Part shown: positions 11,519 through 15,485 of the stretch, one piece after another | How the letters are laid out: each line of letters begins with the position of its first letter | How positions within the stretch are numbered: the first letter of the stretch is position 1 | Virus record (IMG/VR): IMGVR_UViG_2585427793_000014 | Span: 1-22,505 of that record | DNA length: 22,505 nt | From: a virus | Taxonomy: Duplodnaviria; Heunggongvirae; Uroviricota; Caudoviricetes | Strand: one strand, 5' to 3' | Program-made: the position numbers and the translations under genes | Notes under the pieces: model-generated | Told to the model about the DNA's origin: nothing | Seen by the model: only the letters and a program-made list of their open reading frames with translations | The model's database searches: none

Positions 11519-11739
11519 GCCGCACCTCCGAGATGCTTCATGTTTTTTCCGGAGCGAAAGGCTATAAGCGGCATACTGACGCGGTAATTACGACCCAGCG
11601 GTTCACAAATCACCTTCTGACATTCACGGTCCACCAGGCTAACACGTAGAACATGCCCTGCAGGCGTGGTGTACCACTGACCGGGGCGAGGACAACGGAA
11701 AGTCTGATTGGTAAATCGTTTGAAAATATTCCGGATCAT
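11515..11739 (-). CDS. Hypothetical 74-aa protein
   Basis: Translationally coupled (ATGA overlaps) to both the upstream Rha-domain gene and the downstream O-like gene. No family recognised. Confidence 0.4.
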   Translation of the reverse strand: MIRNIFKRFTNQTFRCPRPGQWYTTPAGHVLRVSLVDRECQKVICEPLGRNYRVSMPLIAFRSGKNMKHLGGAA

Positions 11740-12899
11740 TTGCGCCCCCTTACCTCTGAAGAGTTCAGCGACGAATGAATAAGACGGGCAAGAAATGCCG
11801 CATCGTTAATTCGGTCATACAGACTTACAGCCAGAGGTGATTCAGCTTTTTCCAGCATGGGATAAAGCTGCTGCAACCAGACCTGATGAATTGATGAAAT
11901 GTAGGAATAGAGAACACTGGCGTTATGTGCAACGTCGCTCGGTACAGCGGGCTTTGAAAGCTGTTTCTCCATCTGGTTAAAGGCATTGATGTATGCCTCT
12001 TTGAACTGGGCAGCACGTTTACCCGTGAAACCCATAGCAAGAAACGCAAAGCCATCGCGGGTTATTTGATAGCAAGGTAGTTTGCGAGTACCGCCGTTGG
12101 GCTGGCGTACCAAAATTGATGTCTCCGCAAAATTGCGGGCACAAAACTCTGGAGAACAATCCAAAATGCGAATCTTTTTCAGAACATCGTCATGACGTTT
12201 AGAGAAGAAGTCAGCAACAGCCAAAGAAGATGTAACAGCCTGACCATCAACGATGGCAATTTCAGGTTGAGAGAGGGTTGGGAGAGTAGTCATAGTGACA
12301 GCCCCGGTAGTCAGTTTTTTAGAAAACTCACCACATGGGACGCCAATCACAGAGGTGGTGAGACGTACAGGGTTGGCGTTACCGGAGACTACCGAACCCG
12401 GCCCGACCGAAGTCGGCCCTGTACGCCCCACCATAATTTGGGCGTAGCAATGCTCATGACACGAAAAAACCGCATGAGCGCGGTTATGCTCAGTAATCAA
12501 TTTCAGGACGCCAATCCCGGCACCCGCTTTATAAGGTGCCTGAACAGTGTAACGTCCCGGAATGGCAGAATCAATGTGCTGGTGGTCCTTCACACTCAAC
12601 AAAATCACGCCTGAATTTCCACAAAGGACTAAAGCACTCATGCGGGTAGTCTTTGCGAAGATAGATAACGCGCTGAGTTTCTGGCTCCCAACGAATAACA
12701 TGGACATAAAGCCCTCTTCCATCACGAAACCAGCGGTTAAGTTCCTGCACAACTCGCCCCCCACAGTCAGGTAAAGTTCTCTGTGGTTACTTACAGCCAG
12801 GTGATTTGGTAATCTGCATTCATGCCGTAACAACAGGTGTTCAGCGACACTGACCACCAGCTGTTGCGACAAACGGTTATTTGCCGTTAAACTGTTCAT
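11736..12899 (-). CDS. Rha-domain phage regulatory protein with about 200-aa N-terminal extension
   Basis: Residues about 205-320 (LSQPEIAIVDGQAVTSSLAVADFFSKRHDDVLKKIRILD...GTRKLPCYQITRDGFAFLAMGFTGKRAAQFKEAYINAFNQME) match the Rha pattern. ATG 12897-12899 overlaps the CII-like stop (ATGA). The N-terminal 200 aa have atypical composition. Confidence 0.55.
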   Translation of the reverse strand: MNSLTANNRLSQQLVVSVAEHLLLRHECRLPNHLAVSNHRELYLTVGGELCRNLTAGFVMEEGFMSMLFVGSQKLSALSIFAKTTRMSALVLCGNSGVILLSVKDHQHIDSAIPGRYTVQAPYKAGAGIGVLKLITEHNRAHAVFSCHEHCYAQIMVGRTGPTSVGPGSVVSGNANPVRLTTSVIGVPCGEFSKKLTTGAVTMTTLPTLSQPEIAIVDGQAVTSSLAVADFFSKRHDDVLKKIRILDCSPEFCARNFAETSILVRQPNGGTRKLPCYQITRDGFAFLAMGFTGKRAAQFKEAYINAFNQMEKQLSKPAVPSDVAHNASVLYSYISSIHQVWLQQLYPMLEKAESPLAVSLYDRINDAAFLARLIHSSLNSSEVRGRK

Positions 12900-13459
12900 G
12901 CGTTAGTTTCTCCACAGACACAAAACGCCACGACGCCCGGAGCTGCACACTCGCGGGCGTCACTCTTTTCTGGAGCGCAAAAGATTTTGTAGACCAGTGC
13001 TGCATGCTCCTGGAGCTTCGAAATTGACAGATACAACTCATCATTAATTGCTGTCTGCTCGTGTGGCTCCACTACCCCATCTTCGATTGCCGAACGAATC
13101 TGCTTTGAGTAACTCCCGATCTGTTCGATGACTTCCAGCAGGCGCTGGTTTATATCGGCGTTCTCTACTTCCTCAATTTCAGGAAGCGATACAAACACCC
13201 CACCAGCAGACTGTGCGACAGCATCCGCAATGTAGTGAGTGCCAGCCGCGCGCTGTAAAATCATTGCCCATCCCAGCGGGAAAATCTGATCGCCATCTGC
13301 ACGAAGGCGGTTGAATAAAGCGTTCTCTGTTACATCCAGCCACTCAGCAGCTTCAGCGTAACCCCCCGGCAACGCCGCGATAGTTTTTCTGACAGCTTTC
13401 ACGTACCACTCAGGCTGTTTTTCTACTTTCCAGTGATGCTTACCCACGGTTAGCCTCAT
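12896..13459 (-). CDS. CII-like regulatory protein (possibly CP76-type phage CII family)
   Basis: 187-aa ORF immediately downstream of the cro-like gene in the rightward early operon (synteny with cII). Family assignment is from memory and weak. Confidence 0.4.
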   Translation of the reverse strand: MRLTVGKHHWKVEKQPEWYVKAVRKTIAALPGGYAEAAEWLDVTENALFNRLRADGDQIFPLGWAMILQRAAGTHYIADAVAQSAGGVFVSLPEIEEVENADINQRLLEVIEQIGSYSKQIRSAIEDGVVEPHEQTAINDELYLSISKLQEHAALVYKIFCAPEKSDARECAAPGVVAFCVCGETNA

Positions 13460-13490
13460 CGTTCTGTGGTTAAAAATTGAAGGTGTTCTG

Positions 13491-13691
13491 TTAATCTTTC
13501 GGATAGATATCCGGTCTTAAGTCAGATTTCGTAATTGCACCTGACGTGCATTGCTCAAGTTTTTTAGCCAACACAAAACTGGCTTTTTTATAACCATTGA
13601 AAACCAGCCGTAAGTAGCCTGGTGTTGAGCCAACTTTTCCGGCCAACTCGCCCTGCTGTTCTTTGGTTAAAGAGTCCCAATACGCTTTCAT
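13491..13691 (-). CDS. cro: Cro-like / YdaS-like HTH regulator (66 aa)
   Basis: MKAYWDSLTKEQQGELAGKVGSTPGYLRLVFNGYKKASFVLAKKLEQCTSGAITKSDLRPDIYPKD. GGAGGT ribosome-binding site 9 nt upstream of ATG 13689-13691; divergent from the cI-like gene. The longer track ORF (to 13994) overlaps cI and is rejected. Confidence 0.7.
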   Translation of the reverse strand: MKAYWDSLTKEQQGELAGKVGSTPGYLRLVFNGYKKASFVLAKKLEQCTSGAITKSDLRPDIYPKD

Positions 13692-13781
13692 ACAATATGT
13701 ACCTCCGATATACATATTACATGATTGAGATGAACCTTCAAGATACTTGTACCCTATCGGTACAAAGGTTTTAATTTCGTT
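13692..13781. promoter_or_regulatory. OR-like divergent control region: two operator palindromes sharing a (A/T)TGTACC half-site, PR-like and PRM-like promoters
   Basis: Palindromes AATATGTA-N9-TACATATT (13694-13718) and TTGTACC-CTATC-GGTACAA (13747-13765). Minus-strand promoter candidate: -35 TTGAAG (13736-13741), 16-bp spacer, -10 TAATAT (13714-13719). Plus-strand candidate: -35 TTGTAC (13747-13752), -10 TTAATT/TAATTT (13771-13777), giving a near-leaderless cI message. Confidence 0.6.
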
Positions 13782-14456
13782 ATGAAAACAGTCCATGACA
13801 TCCGGCGGTCTAACGCCAGAAAACTGAGAGATGGTGTTGGCGGGAATTCTTCCTTTGCCACCATGATTGATCGCGAGCCAACCCAGACCAGCAGGTTTAT
13901 GGGAGATGGTGCTACTAAAAATATCGGTGACAGCATGGCACGGCACATCGAAAAATGTTTCGACCTGCCTGTCGGATGGCTTGATCAAGAACACCAGACA
14001 ACAAACATCACAAAAAAACCTGATGTTTCAATTACTAACAAACAAATAACGTTAGTCCCTGTCATATCATGGGTACAGGCCGGAGCATGGAAAGAAGTTG
14101 GCTATTCTGAGGTTGATTTGAGCACAGCAGAAACTTATCCCTGCCCTGTACCCTGTGGCGAAATGACTTATATCTTGCGGGTGATTGGTGATTCAATGAT
14201 TGATGAGTACCGCCCGGGAGACATGATTTTTGTTGATCCTGAAGTCCCTGCCTGCCACGGTGACGACGTTATTGCATTGATGCACGATACAGGCGAAACC
14301 ACCTTCAAGCGGTTGATAGAAGATGGAACACAGCGTTATCTCAAAGCATTAAACCCAAACTGGCCTGAGCCTTACATTAAGATTAACGGTAATTGCTCTA
14401 TAATTGGTACAGTAATTTTCTCAGGAAAACCAAGAAGATACAAAATAAAGGCCTAA
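13782..14456 (+). CDS. cI: CI-type prophage repressor with C-terminal S24 (LexA-like) autopeptidase domain
   Basis: C-terminal VIGDSMIDEYRPGDMIFVDPE...ETTFKRLIEDGTQRYLKALNPNWPEPYIKING..CSIIGTVI aligns by eye with lambda CI (GNSM...[23 protein letters not shown]...CSVVGKVI). N-terminal DNA-binding region; divergent from cro. Confidence 0.9.
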   Translation: MKTVHDIRRSNARKLRDGVGGNSSFATMIDREPTQTSRFMGDGATKNIGDSMARHIEKCFDLPVGWLDQEHQTTNITKKPDVSITNKQITLVPVISWVQAGAWKEVGYSEVDLSTAETYPCPVPCGEMTYILRVIGDSMIDEYRPGDMIFVDPEVPACHGDDVIALMHDTGETTFKRLIEDGTQRYLKALNPNWPEPYIKINGNCSIIGTVIFSGKPRRYKIKA

Positions 14457-14469
14457 TCAATATTTATAA

Positions 14470-14491
14470 CCTGCTTCGGCAGGTTTTTTTA
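14470..14491 (+). terminator. Intrinsic terminator downstream of cI
   Basis: CCTGC-TTCG-GCAGG hairpin followed by a run of seven T. Confidence 0.7.
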
Positions 14492-14494
14492 TAC

Positions 14495-14528
14495 TTGACA
14501 ATGTACCCTTGAGATACATAATGTATCT
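14495..14528 (+). promoter_or_regulatory. PL-like early-left promoter with overlapping operator
   Basis: -35 TTGACA (14495-14500), 16-17 bp spacer, -10 CATAAT/ATAATG (14517-14523). The spacer contains ATGTACC (same half-site as in the OR region) and the palindrome AGATACATAATGTATCT (14512-14528) overlaps the -10. Confidence 0.6.
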
Positions 14529-15122
14529 AAAAGAAACATGCCACAGGCAAGATTAAACAAAATTTGCTTGTAACACGGCGTATGGCACATGCGTCGTTAG
14601 CGGTCTGGGGACGTTAAAGGGGACAATCCACTCCTTGCTCGGGCAAACAAACCAGGTAGCCGGAATGTGCAAGTCAATGAGGATGCTGATAAGACGCCTA
14701 ACCAGCGTGGCGATTCGGTTTGACGCCTGGGAAGAGACCAGGGTGCAACGATGAGGGCATTTATGGAGCCGCGACAAAGTGTGGTGCCGTAACTGGCTAA
14801 GTGCTCTCAGCGTTGTGGTAATCCGCGAAATGGCGCGGCGGTAAGTATGGCGGGGGTACTCTTTCCCCCTTGAGGACACCGGATTGTCAGGTTGACCATA
14901 CGCCTGAGTGACAACCCCACCACAACAGCCACTGCTTTGGCGGTACCAGTTTGTGCACTTGCTTCCGGCTGGTACCGCTCTTTTTACAAAACAGAGAAGA
15001 GCATCACCGGACGACGGGCTCATAACCCAATCCATCCGGGCGGCTGCCACCGCAGGTGTTCTTCTCTGTTTTGTGGAGAAACCAACCGACCTTGCAGGGT
15101 CGATATGATGAGGAGCAGCAAA
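14529..15122 (+). promoter_or_regulatory. Long (about 590 nt) structured untranslated leader of the early-left operon; no N-like ORF
   Basis: No plausible ORF on either strand (only compositionally junk ORFs). Several stable inverted repeats: GGGGGTACTCTTTCCCCC (about 14863-14881); GCGGTACCAG/CTGGTACCGC (14940-14949 / 14975-14984) followed by TCTTTTTAC; ACAAAACAGAGAAGAG / TTCTTCTCTGTTTTGT (about 14986-15001 / 15061-15076). A boxA-like CGCTCTTTTTACAA lies at about 14981-14994. Confidence 0.35.
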
Positions 15123-15485
15123 ATGGCTAGCGAACGCAGTACTGATGTGCAGGCATTTATCGGGGAGTTGGACGGCGGCGTATTTGAAACCAAAATCGGC
15201 GCAGTTCTCAGTGAAGTCGCTTCAGGTGTGATGAACACGAAAACCAAAGGTAAGGTCTCACTCAACCTGGAAATCGAACCATTTGATGAGAACCGTGTGA
15301 AAATCAAACACAAACTCTCATATGTTCGCCCGACTAACCGCGGGAAAATTTCTGAAGAAGACACCACCGAAACGCCGATGTATGTCAATCGCGGTGGTCG
15401 CCTGACTATTCTGCAGGAAGACCAGGGACAATTACTGACTCTTGCCGGTGAACCTGACGGAAAACTCCGCGCAGCAGGTCATTAA
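15123..15485 (+). CDS. Hypothetical 120-aa protein (YfdP-like by position and size)
   Basis: GAGGAG ribosome-binding site 8 nt upstream of ATG 15123; first gene after the leader; followed by the YfdQ-like gene. No arginine-rich motif, so not an N homolog. Confidence 0.5.
   Translation: MASERSTDVQAFIGELDGGVFETKIGAVLSEVASGVMNTKTKGKVSLNLEIEPFDENRVKIKHKLSYVRPTNRGKISEEDTTETPMYVNRGGRLTILQEDQGQLLTLAGEPDGKLRAAGH

What the first reader, a model, noticed from the sequence alone, without database searches (positions are those of the whole stretch)
13692..14528. Immunity region operators defined by a repeated (A/T)TGTACC half-site at both OR-like and OL-like positions
Three palindromic elements (13694-13718; 13747-13765; 14501-14528) share the ATGTAC(C) core and overlap the -10/-35 hexamers of the predicted PR-like, PRM-like and PL-like promoters. 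That gives a testable operator consensus for this CI/Cro pair, different from lambda's. The OR region appears to hold only two clear palindromes rather than three, and cI is followed directly by a terminator and the PL-like promoter with no rex-like genes.
Basis: seen in the sequence. Interest (0 to 1): 0.4.

Follow-up and report, generated by a model that had tools for sequence, protein, structure and literature searches.

The report
Operators of an e14/SfV-type prophage switch
The repeated ATGTACC half-sites are real, conserved repressor-binding sites of an ordinary lambda-like prophage switch, the same one carried by the e14 prophage of E. coli K-12 and by phages SfV and cdtI, so the finding is sound but not new.

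Summary
A scan for ATGTACC-N5-GGTACAT finds five 19-bp sites with at least 11 of 14 matches in the 22.5-kb window. All five lie in the immunity region, against 0.66 expected by chance (0 of 200 shuffles).

- **OR sites:** three, at 13697-13715, 13730-13748 and 13747-13765.
- **OL sites:** two, at 14501-14519 and 14521-14539.

In 22 distinct homologous immunity regions from many Enterobacterales genera, all five sites sit at fixed positions. Half-sites are nearly invariant (wTGTAYC) and spacers vary freely. The right half of OL2 is weak or lost in some relatives.

The sites overlap conserved PR, PRM and PL promoters. The repressor mRNA of the 223/224-identical e14 gene ymfK is experimentally leaderless, which anchors PRM. 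That places the middle OR site at -43, the position lambda OR2 holds.

The module is 99.5% identical to phage cdtI and 96.7% to SfV. The SfV GenBank record already marks exactly this 69-bp stretch as a "putative operator region". The module occurs in 1324 of 5426 complete E. coli genomes.

Verdict: a correct reading of a known, ordinary lambdoid switch. Binding has not been shown experimentally in any paper I could reach.

The parts
13491..13691 (-). cro-like gene (66 aa; equivalent to YmfT/CroE of e14)
   Evidence: ORF with ATG at 13691. Weak Pfam YdaS_toxin/HTH_3 matches. Annotated cro in SfV and cdtI and ymfT in E. coli. The helix GYLRLVF is invariant in orthologues.
13697..13715 (.). O1: ATGTACC-tccga-TATACAT, 12/14. 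Covers the last 2 bp of the PR -10, the predicted PR start and the cro Shine-Dalgarno sequence (GGAGG, complement of 13702-13706).
   Evidence: TGTACCTCC and TACA are invariant in 22 distinct homologues.
13714..13719 (-). PR -10 hexamer TAATAT (read on the - strand)
   Evidence: Same register in all homologues as TAATAT, CATAAT or TATCCT, keeping T-12, A-11 and T-7. Inference from consensus and conservation; no transcription start mapped here.
13730..13748 (.). O2: ATGAACC-ttcaa-GATACTT, 11/14. Covers the PR -35. Centre at -43 of PRM. Overlaps O3 by 2 bp.
   Evidence: ATGAACC is invariant (GTGAACC once) although it lies in the PR spacer. The right half is GGTACTT in 10 of the 21 distinct OR sequences (10 loci).
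13736..13741 (-). PR -35 hexamer TTGAAG (read on the - strand), 16-bp spacer to the -10
   Evidence: TTGnnG is kept in nearly all homologues at a fixed 16-bp spacing. It falls below the 9/12 cut-off of the generic promoter scan.
13747..13765 (.). O3: TTGTACC-ctatc-GGTACAA, 12/14 with perfect 7-bp arms. Covers the PRM -35 and spacer (-35 to -17).
   Evidence: Half-site information is 1.94 bits against 0.44 bits for the spacer.
13747..13775 (+). PRM: -35 TTGTAC (13747-13752), 17-bp spacer, -10 TTTAAT (13770-13775). Start at the A of the cI ATG (13782), giving a leaderless mRNA.
   Evidence: TAAT and the 6-nt gap to the ATG are kept in all homologues, and there is no Shine-Dalgarno sequence. The mRNA of ymfK (223/224 identical) is leaderless by differential RNA-seq in K-12 (PMC4681348).
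13782..14456 (+). cI-like repressor gene (224 aa; equivalent to YmfK/CohE of e14)
   Evidence: Peptidase_S24, E = 1.5e-26. Lambda cI C-terminal domain in PDB, E = 2e-9. VQA100-G101, S138 (VIGDSM) and K176 (TFKRL) align with the lambda cleavage site and dyad. N-terminal domain weakly like phage repressor N-terminal domains.
14468..14492 (+). Intrinsic terminator after cI (stem 14468-14485, then a T run)
   Evidence: Conserved hairpin plus T run in homologues. Annotated as a terminator in SfV and Ayreon.
14495..14522 (+). PL: -35 TTGACA (14495-14500), 16-bp spacer, -10 CATAAT (14517-14522)
   Evidence: 11/12 match to consensus. Both hexamers are invariant in 23 distinct homologues. Annotated as a promoter in phage Ayreon.
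14501..14519 (.). OL1: ATGTACC-cttga-GATACAT, 13/14. Fills the PL spacer and the first 3 bp of the -10.
   Evidence: Reaches 14/14 in many relatives. Half-site information is 1.92 bits against 0.56 bits for the spacer.
14521..14539 (.). OL2: ATGTATC-taaaa-GAAACAT, 11/14. Covers the end of the PL -10 and the predicted start.
   Evidence: The left half is near-invariant. The right half is weakly conserved and unrecognisable in about six relatives.

Best explanation
This is the control region of a lambda-type lysis/lysogeny switch of the e14/SfV/cdtI immunity group.

**The binding sites.** The 224-aa CI-like repressor probably binds as a dimer to 19-bp sites of consensus ATGTACC-N5-GGTACAT, with core half-site wTGTAYC. 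The Cro-like protein most likely binds the same sites. There are five sites.

**At OR.** O1 covers the -10, start and ribosome-binding site of the cro promoter PR. O2 covers the PR -35. Occupying both shuts off cro and the rightward early operon.

O2 ends at -34 and is centred at -43 of the repressor promoter PRM, as lambda OR2 is. Repressor bound there is placed to stimulate PRM. O3 covers the PRM -35 and spacer, and would turn repressor synthesis down when filled by excess CI or by Cro. PRM makes a leaderless cI mRNA.

**At OL.** Directly after the cI terminator, OL1 fills the spacer of the strong PL promoter and OL2 sits on its start site.

**Induction.** DNA damage leads to RecA-stimulated self-cleavage of CI at Ala100-Gly101 by the Ser138/Lys176 dyad. 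This frees PR and PL.

**Status of each step.**
- Shown here: existence, clustering, fixed positions and conservation of the sites and promoters; the domain make-up of CI.
- Shown in the literature for the near-identical e14 gene: the leaderless start.
- Inferred: actual binding, which protein fills which site first, cooperativity, activation from O2, and autocleavage.
For: 1. The five best matches to the 19-bp pattern in 22.5 kb are the five sites. Observed 5 against 0.66 expected, 0 of 200 shuffles. They are the only five in the whole 47-kb cdtI genome.
2. In 22 distinct homologous regions (CI 73-100% identical; Escherichia, Shigella phages, Klebsiella, Leclercia, Pantoea, Rahnella, Hafnia, Edwardsiella and others), the OR sites keep identical spacing of 33 and 17 bp centre to centre. 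OL1 and OL2 keep 20 bp. Pooled O1/O3/OL1 half-sites are T 130/132, G 132, T 132, A 132, C 113 (T 19), C 116. Spacers vary: 0.44 bits at O3 and 0.56 bits at OL1, against about 1.9 bits for half-sites.
3. The CI helix TQTSRF and the Cro helix GYLRLVF are conserved in all these loci. More distant CI relatives with other helices have other repeats upstream.
4. Promoter elements are conserved in register around the sites.
5. ymfK mRNA is leaderless in K-12 (PMC4681348), and the e14 OR is near-identical to the window.
6. CI has the S24 domain and aligns with the lambda cI cleavage site and dyad.
7. The cassette from cro to OL2 moves as a unit. Phages with other immunity regions match only the flanks, for example from 14556 onward.
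8. In K-12 the PR-side genes (ymfT, ymfL, ymfM, ymfN and others) and the PL-side genes (ymfJ, ymfH, xisE, intE) form one co-expressed set together with the SOS genes sulA and recN. This fits one SOS-sensitive repressor acting at both operators.
9. The SfV GenBank record marks O1 start to O3 end as 'putative operator region'.
Against: - No binding experiment for this repressor or Cro was found in the papers I could reach.
- The N-terminal domain of CI matches no Pfam HTH model and only weakly matches solved repressor domains (E = 1e-3).
- O2 and OL2 are weaker matches. Parts of them are also constrained by the PR -35, the PRM -35 and the PL -10/start. O1 is also constrained by the cro Shine-Dalgarno sequence. 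Not all conservation can therefore be credited to repressor binding.
- O2 and O3 overlap by 2 bp (17 bp centre to centre), which is tighter than in lambda and may prevent joint occupancy.
- PR scores only 8/12 against the sigma-70 consensus, and its start is not mapped.
- For phage 933W, consensus match does not predict affinity (PMC3317979). No order of occupancy can be read from the sequences.
Confidence: 0.8

Rival explanations
1. Only O1, O3 and OL1 are true operators. On this reading, O2 and OL2 look like sites because they overlap promoter elements (PR -35, PRM -35, PL -10 and start), so the switch has 2+1 sites.
For: - O2 and OL2 score 11/14 here.
- The O2 spacer 'CAA' is the PR -35 TTG, and its last bases are the PRM -35.
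- The first bases of OL2 belong to the PL -10.
- The right half of OL2 has low information (0.1-1.3 bits) and is lost in about six relatives.
Against: - The O2 left half ATGAACC is invariant in 21 of 22 homologues, although it lies in the PR spacer where promoters impose little sequence constraint.
- The O2 right half is GGTACTT (6/7) in 10 loci, giving 12/14 for the whole site.
- The OL2 left half ATGTACC extends 5 bp beyond the -10 and is near-invariant.
- Both sites lie at fixed distances from their neighbours (33 and 20 bp, about 3 and 2 helical turns).
- 933W likewise has five natural sites.
Confidence: 0.15
2. The palindromes act in RNA, as hairpins or terminators, rather than as protein-binding DNA. 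For example, 13747-13765 followed by AGGTTTTAAT would be an intrinsic terminator.
For: The generic scan lists 13747-13765 as terminator-like: a 7-bp stem, a 5-nt loop and a T-rich tail.
Against: - The T-rich tail is the PRM -10 region and is not kept as a T run in homologues (for example CACAATGTTTAAT and GGATGTCTAAT).
- Arms never vary, so there is no compensatory change.
- The same half-site recurs in sites whose two arms are not complementary to each other (O1, O2, OL2), which fits protein recognition and not folding.
- Rfam finds nothing here at E <= 1.
Confidence: 0.02
3. The sites are host LexA (SOS) boxes, so the prophage is held directly by LexA.
For: The half-site contains TGTA, as the LexA box CTGTAT does. 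CI is annotated 'LexA family protein' in RefSeq. e14 genes are co-expressed with sulA and recN.
Against: - The E. coli LexA box is CTGT-N8-ACAG (established knowledge).
- Here TGT and ACA are 11 bp apart, and the C before TGT is absent: the base there is A, T or G in 126 of 132 half-sites.
- The 'LexA family' label reflects the S24 domain only.
- The sites travel with cI/cro as a cassette and co-vary with that module, not with the host.
Confidence: 0.02

Closest known systems
Immunity region of prophage e14 (ymfK/cohE - ymfT/croE) of E. coli K-12, and of phages SfV, SfIV, cdtI, Ayreon, 2H10 and several Stx2c phages
   Same: - It is the same module.
- CI is 223/224 identical to YmfK, and the same five sites are present in MG1655.
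- DNA identity is 99.5% to cdtI, 98.8% to Stx2c phages and 96.7% to SfV.
- The SfV record marks O1 start to O3 end as 'putative operator region'.
- ymfK mRNA is leaderless.
- The module is present in 1324 of 5426 complete E. coli genomes.
   Different: - A few base changes in the spacers: the O1 spacer is tccga-T here and tccgg-T in e14; the O3 spacer is ctatc here and ttaac in e14.
- The OL2 left half is ATGTATC here and ATGTACC in e14 and SfV.
- The DNA downstream of OL2 (from about 14556) is a different mosaic piece from that in e14 and SfV.
Bacteriophage lambda OR/OL with CI and Cro
   Same: - Divergent cI and cro genes.
- Three sites in OR overlapping PR and PRM.
- A leaderless cI mRNA with the same 6-nt gap between the -10 and the ATG.
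- A middle site ending at -34 of PRM.
- A repressor with an S24 self-cleavage domain that aligns with lambda's Ala-Gly site and Ser/Lys dyad.
- PL lies downstream of cI on the same strand.
   Different: - Sites are 19 bp (ATGTACC-N5-GGTACAT) rather than 17 bp.
- Centre spacings in OR are 33 and 17 bp, against 24 and 23 in lambda.
- O2 and O3 overlap by 2 bp.
- O1 lies over the start and ribosome-binding site rather than in the promoter spacer.
- OL has two sites, and the second lies downstream of the promoter.
- There are no rex genes.
- OL is only about 0.8 kb from OR.
- No N gene is evident after PL.
- Cro belongs to the YdaS-like family.
Bacteriophage 933W operators (Koudelka laboratory)
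   Same: A lambdoid switch with five natural repressor sites rather than six (PMC3317979).
   Different: - 933W sites are 15 bp with a different sequence.
- 933W binding is experimentally measured and reported as non-cooperative.
- Nothing has been measured for the present repressor.

Membership tests
Lambda-type (lambdoid) CI/Cro immunity region | Divergently transcribed repressor and cro genes separated by a short control region | tested here: met
   cro is at 13691-13491 (-) and cI at 13782-14456 (+), with 90 bp between the start codons. The same arrangement is found in all 23 related loci.
Lambda-type (lambdoid) CI/Cro immunity region | Repressor with a C-terminal S24 (LexA/UmuD-like) self-cleavage domain, an Ala-Gly site and a Ser/Lys dyad | tested here: met
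   Pfam Peptidase_S24, E = 1.5e-26. Lambda cI C-terminal domain, E = 2e-9. A100-G101, S138 and K176 align with lambda A111-G112, S149 and K192. Cleavage itself was not tested.
Lambda-type (lambdoid) CI/Cro immunity region | Repressor N-terminal helix-turn-helix DNA-binding domain | tested here: inconclusive
   No Pfam HTH match even at E <= 10. Weak sequence matches to N-terminal domains of solved phage repressors: 5d50 at E = 1e-3 and 7nkv at E = 0.05. No structure was predicted.
Lambda-type (lambdoid) CI/Cro immunity region | Several imperfectly symmetric operator sites sharing one half-site, overlapping PR and PRM (OR) and PL (OL) | tested here: met
   Five 19-bp sites, statistically enriched and clustered. 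They are conserved in position, with conserved half-sites and variable spacers, in 22 distinct homologues.
Lambda-type (lambdoid) CI/Cro immunity region | Maintenance promoter giving a leaderless repressor mRNA, with an operator placed next to its -35 for activation | tested here: met
   The geometry TTGTAC-N17-TTTAAT-N6-ATG is conserved. Leaderless ymfK mRNA was shown in K-12 (PMC4681348). O2 spans -52 to -34. Activation itself was not tested.
Lambda-type (lambdoid) CI/Cro immunity region | Physical binding of both CI and Cro to the sites, with opposite orders of preference and cooperative CI binding | not testable with these tools
   No binding data were found. This needs EMSA, footprinting or ChIP.
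Lambda-type (lambdoid) CI/Cro immunity region | N protein and nut-site antitermination downstream of PL | tested here: inconclusive
   There is no plausible protein-coding ORF between PL and 15123: the mechanical ORF list does include a 165-aa reverse-strand ORF at 14553-15050, which has no support as a gene. Instead there is a roughly 600-nt highly structured leader (z = -5.6) with no Rfam match. The SfIV paper states that SfV and SfIV lack N, cII and cIII homologues (PMC3851460). N-like proteins were not searched for further.
e14/SfV immunity group (YmfK/CohE - YmfT/CroE) | Repressor and Cro essentially identical to YmfK and YmfT, with the same operator sequences | tested here: met
   CI is 223/224 identical to YmfK, and the five sites are present in MG1655 with the same spacing. 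Cro is identical to SfV Cro. RefSeq names the genes under the match ymfK and ymfT.
LexA (SOS) boxes | CTGT-N8-ACAG 16-bp palindrome | tested here: not met
   The TGT and ACA triplets are 11 bp apart in all five sites. The preceding base is A, T or G in 126 of 132 half-sites.

The most novel reading that the evidence does not exclude
The wiring may differ from lambda in ways that matter.

- O2 and O3 overlap by 2 bp, with centres 17 bp apart on roughly opposite faces of the helix. Occupancy of the activating site and of the auto-repressing site could therefore be mutually exclusive.
- The O2 left half-site carries a T-to-A 'defect' (ATGAACC) in all 22 homologues (GTGAACC in one), as if its weakness were selected.
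- OL has its second site downstream of the PL start.
- OL lies only about 0.8 kb from OR, which could allow an unusually tight OL-OR loop.

If these features hold, this widespread E. coli switch, present in K-12 itself, would be a third worked example of lambdoid switch logic beside lambda and 933W.
Probability: 0.2. Interest if true: 0.35.

Novelty: already known. Interest (0 to 1): 0.2.

Why it matters
The practical value is modest.

- **A testable motif.** The analysis gives a well-supported binding motif (ATGTACC-N5-GGTACAT) and five sites, three at OR and two at OL, for YmfK and YmfT. These two E. coli K-12 regulators are still listed as 'putative'.
- **A simpler account of the 'YmfT iModulon'.** The PR-side and PL-side e14 genes rise together with sulA and recN after oxidative or DNA damage. 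The simple explanation is loss of the SOS-sensitive repressor YmfK from OR and OL, with no separate stress-sensing role needed for YmfT.
- **Wide reach.** The same switch controls toxin-carrying phages (cdtI, Stx2c) and serotype-converting Shigella phages. It sits in about a quarter of complete E. coli genomes.

It does not open a new kind of mechanism.

Tried and rejected
1. **Motif search in papers.** Searching for the 7-mers returned 19,022 unrelated papers and was of no use.
2. **Papers not held.** The SfV genome paper (Allison et al. 2002) and the e14 analysis (Mehta et al. 2004) are not in the library. I therefore could not check what they say about the individual operators. Only the GenBank feature of SfV could be used.
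3. **Binding data.** Searches for SfV, e14, ymfK, cohE and croE binding data found only lists and expression studies.
4. **PDB identifiers.** Searching for the PDB codes of the weak CI and Cro structural matches found nothing relevant.
5. **Rfam.** There are no matches in 13300-15300 at E <= 1, so no known RNA element explains the palindromes.
6. **Terminator reading of O3.** Rejected because its T tail is not conserved.
7. **LexA-box reading.** Rejected on spacing.
8. **Fourth OR site.** A site 20 bp from O1, by analogy with OL1-OL2, does not exist: 13717-13735 matches poorly (one search list).
9. **Site inside cI.** The 10-11/14 match at 14146 occurs only in the E. coli-type loci and not in more distant homologues, so it is taken as chance.
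10. **Bare half-site enrichment.** Absent in the window as a whole.
11. **Structure prediction of the CI N-terminal domain.** Not attempted, because only single-sequence input was allowed without an expensive homologue search and the answer would not change the verdict.
Full report
**What is in the sequence**

The region holds a 66-aa Cro-like gene on the minus strand (13691-13491). A 224-aa CI-like gene lies on the plus strand (13782-14456), 90 bp from it.

- CI carries a Peptidase_S24 domain (E = 1.5e-26).
- It matches the lambda cI C-terminal domain in the PDB (E = 2e-9).
- It aligns with lambda's cleavage site and catalytic residues: VQA100-G101, S138 in VIGDSM and K176 in TFKRL.
- Cro gives weak YdaS/HTH_3 matches.
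- Beyond cro lies a CII/CP76-family gene (12896-13459).
- After cI come an intrinsic terminator (14468-14485 plus a T run) and a near-consensus promoter, TTGACA-N16-CATAAT (14495-14522). No gene lies between them.

**Checking the observation**

The natural unit is a 19-bp site, ATGTACC-N5-GGTACAT. I scored every 19-mer of the window for matches to the two 7-bp arms. The five best are all in the immunity region:

| Site | Coordinates | Matches of 14 |
|---|---|---|
| OL1 | 14501-14519 | 13 |
| O1 | 13697-13715 | 12 |
| O3 | 13747-13765 | 12 |
| O2 | 13730-13748 | 11 |
| OL2 | 14521-14539 | 11 |

- The repeat finder independently grouped four of them as one 20-nt family.
- In 200 dinucleotide-preserving shuffles, sites with at least 11/14 average 0.66 (maximum 4) against 5 observed. 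Sites with at least 12/14 average 0.07 against 3 observed.
- The bare half-site is not enriched in the window, so the signal lies in the paired, spaced arrangement and its clustering.
- In the full 47-kb genome of phage cdtI, the only sites with at least 11/14 are the same five.

**Related sequences**

The 1.3-kb region is 99.5% identical to phage cdtI, 98.8% to a set of Stx2c phages, 98.3% to Ayreon and 96.7% to SfV. It is 74% and 69% identical to Hafnia phage yong2 and Edwardsiella phage EPP-1.

A scan of one genome per species found 19 further loci whose CI is 73-100% identical. They come from Escherichia, Pseudocitrobacter, Klebsiella, Leclercia, Atlantibacter, Phytobacter, Pantoea, Trabulsiella, Kluyvera, Limnobaculum, Rahnella, Edwardsiella and others.

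In every one, the three OR sites lie at the same distances from the cI start and from each other: 33 and 17 bp centre to centre. OL1 follows the cI terminator directly after an invariant TTGACA.

Over 22 distinct site sets:
- Pooled half-sites of O1, O3 and OL1 are T 130/132, G 132/132, T 132/132, A 132/132, C 113 (T 19) and C 116 (A 15).
- The five spacer positions carry 0.44 bits at O3 and 0.56 bits at OL1.
- The half-sites carry about 1.9 bits.

This is the pattern expected of a protein-binding site rather than of general sequence conservation.

**The third OR site and the second OL site**

O2 (ATGAACC-ttcaa-GATACTT) is less symmetric in this window.
- Its left arm is invariant (GTGAACC in one locus), although it lies in the spacer of PR.
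- Its right arm is GGTACTT in 10 loci, giving 12/14 for the whole site.
- The T-to-A departure in its left arm is kept everywhere.

OL2 has a near-invariant left arm and a weakly conserved right arm. The right arm is unrecognisable in about six relatives.

Parts of O2, OL2 and the O1 spacer are also constrained by promoter hexamers and by the cro ribosome-binding site (GGAGG, complement of 13702-13706). The case for O2 and OL2 is therefore good but weaker than for O1, O3 and OL1.

**Promoters**

- **PL** is TTGACA-N16-CATAAT. Both hexamers are invariant. OL1 fills the spacer and OL2 covers the predicted start.
- **PRM** is TTGTAC (13747-13752)-N17-TTTAAT (13770-13775), followed by exactly 6 nt and the ATG. 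This geometry holds in all homologues, with no Shine-Dalgarno sequence. It predicts a leaderless mRNA as for lambda cI.
- **Experimental support for PRM:** differential RNA-seq in E. coli K-12 lists ymfK of prophage e14 among only five leaderless mRNAs (PMC4681348). YmfK is 223/224 identical to this CI, with a near-identical upstream region.
- **Positions relative to PRM**, with +1 at 13782: O2 spans -52 to -34 (centre -43), O3 spans -35 to -17 and O1 is centred at -76. By general knowledge, lambda OR2 also ends at -34 of PRM.
- **PR**, read on the minus strand, is TTGAAG (13741-13736)-N16-TAATAT (13719-13714). It scores 8/12, below the cut-off of the generic scan. However, TTGnnG and T-12/A-11/T-7 are kept in register in all homologues. 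O1 covers its last -10 bases, the start and the cro ribosome-binding site. O2 covers its -35.

**Which proteins**

- The CI segment TQTSRF and the Cro segment GYLRLVF are conserved in all loci that keep the half-site.
- Three distant CI relatives from betaproteobacteria have other sequences at that position and other repeats upstream.
- The CI N-terminal domain matches no Pfam HTH model. It matches solved phage repressor N-terminal domains only weakly. Its fold is therefore inferred, not shown.
- That Cro uses the same sites is by analogy with lambda, 434 and P22, and is not tested.

**Identity of the module**

- RefSeq names the genes under the match ymfK and ymfT. 1324 of 5426 complete E. 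coli genomes carry the region.
- MG1655 e14 has the same five sites.
- The SfV GenBank record (U82619.2) carries a 'putative operator region' feature whose ends coincide exactly with the start of O1 and the end of O3.
- Phage Ayreon annotates the terminator and PL.
- Phages with other immunity regions share only the flanks, for example from window 14556 onward. The cassette from cro to OL2 therefore moves as a unit.
- In K-12 expression compendia, e14 genes on both sides of ymfK form one co-expressed set with sulA and recN. The set is active in fur mutants and after peroxide. This fits an SOS-sensitive repressor acting at OR and OL. A K-12 regulator survey lists YmfK as the 'SOS-sensitive repressor'.
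- I found no binding experiment for these proteins. The SfV and e14 genome papers could not be read.

**Mechanism proposed**

1. CI dimers at O1 and O2 block PR. Their centres are 33 bp apart, about three helical turns.
2. The dimer at O2 abuts the PRM -35 and probably stimulates PRM.
3. O3 is filled at higher CI, or by Cro, and shuts PRM.
4. OL1 and OL2 block PL. Their centres are 20 bp apart, about two turns.
5. RecA-stimulated self-cleavage of CI lifts all of this.

The anatomy and conservation are shown. The rest is inference from the lambda paradigm. Work on 933W warns that a consensus match does not predict affinity (PMC3317979), so I do not rank the sites.

**Differences from lambda**

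- Sites are 19 bp rather than 17 bp.
- OR spacings are 33 and 17 bp, and O2 and O3 overlap by 2 bp.
- O1 lies over the transcript start.
- There are only two OL sites, and the second is downstream of PL. 933W also has five sites in all.
- There are no rex genes.
- OL lies about 0.8 kb from OR.

**Verdict**

The object is the known e14/SfV-type immunity region, already annotated as a putative operator region in a public record. Interest is low. The residual value is a concrete, testable motif for YmfK and YmfT of E. coli K-12.

Noticed in passing
window 12351-12438 (-) and 12463-12539 (-): Rfam finds a C4 antisense RNA (RF01695, 82 bits) and an isrK RNA (RF01394, 59 bits) above their gathering scores. 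Both lie inside the mechanical 387-aa ORF 11736-12899, whose C-terminal part is Rha/Ash-like. This looks like a second, RNA-based immunity module of the P1/P7 immI or P4 type, downstream of cro and the CII-like gene. SfV labels the ORF here 'immunity region'. From memory, an RNA-mediated transcription-termination immunity was described for SfV (Roberts, Allison and Verma 2007); I could not verify this here.
   Followed up: partly
window 14529-15122 (+): The roughly 600-nt leader between PL and the first plausible gene (ATG about 15123) has no plausible protein-coding ORF: the mechanical ORF list shows only a 165-aa reverse-strand ORF at 14553-15050 and short ORFs there, none with support as a gene. 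It folds far better than shuffles (-234.7 kcal/mol, z = -5.6, 0 of 100). It has no Rfam match at E <= 1. By eye, it contains a terminator-like hairpin with a U run (about 14943-14990) and a long perfect hairpin (about 14988-15075). With no N gene evident, an RNA-based antitermination or processing element is possible.
   Followed up: partly
window 14556-14700; loci L001, L005, L008, L010-L013, L015, L018, L022: A mosaic joint lies just after OL2. From 14556 the window is 99% identical to Stx2a phages, mEp460 and 1720a-02, which have other immunity regions. e14, SfV and many other relatives instead carry a different conserved leader after OL2, beginning ACAGGCAGGACGCCCACGAAGTAGCCGCC.
   Followed up: no
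E. coli K-12 MG1655 e14, locus L030 (NC_000913.3 1202259-1203224): The published 'YmfT iModulon' of K-12 groups e14 genes from both sides of ymfK with the SOS genes sulA and recN. It was attributed to YmfT sensing oxidative stress. The operator layout suggests the simpler cause is SOS cleavage of YmfK, which would release PR and PL.
   Followed up: partly
window 12896-13459 (-): The gene after cro belongs to the CII/CP76 family (Pfam PF06892, E = 8.5e-15). The SfIV paper states that SfV-type phages lack cII. A CII-dependent establishment promoter aimed at cI was not looked for.
   Followed up: no
locus L003 (Hafnia phage yong2) 2472-2545 (+): A tRNA-Gly (CCC) gene sits in the PL leader of this relative, about 130 nt after OL2. 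The window itself has no tRNA gene.
   Followed up: yes
loci L005 and L014: In two relatives the cro reading frame is altered. It is 108 aa with a different C-terminus in L005 and truncated to 24 aa in L014, while the operators and cI are intact. These are possibly decaying prophages locked in repression.
   Followed up: no
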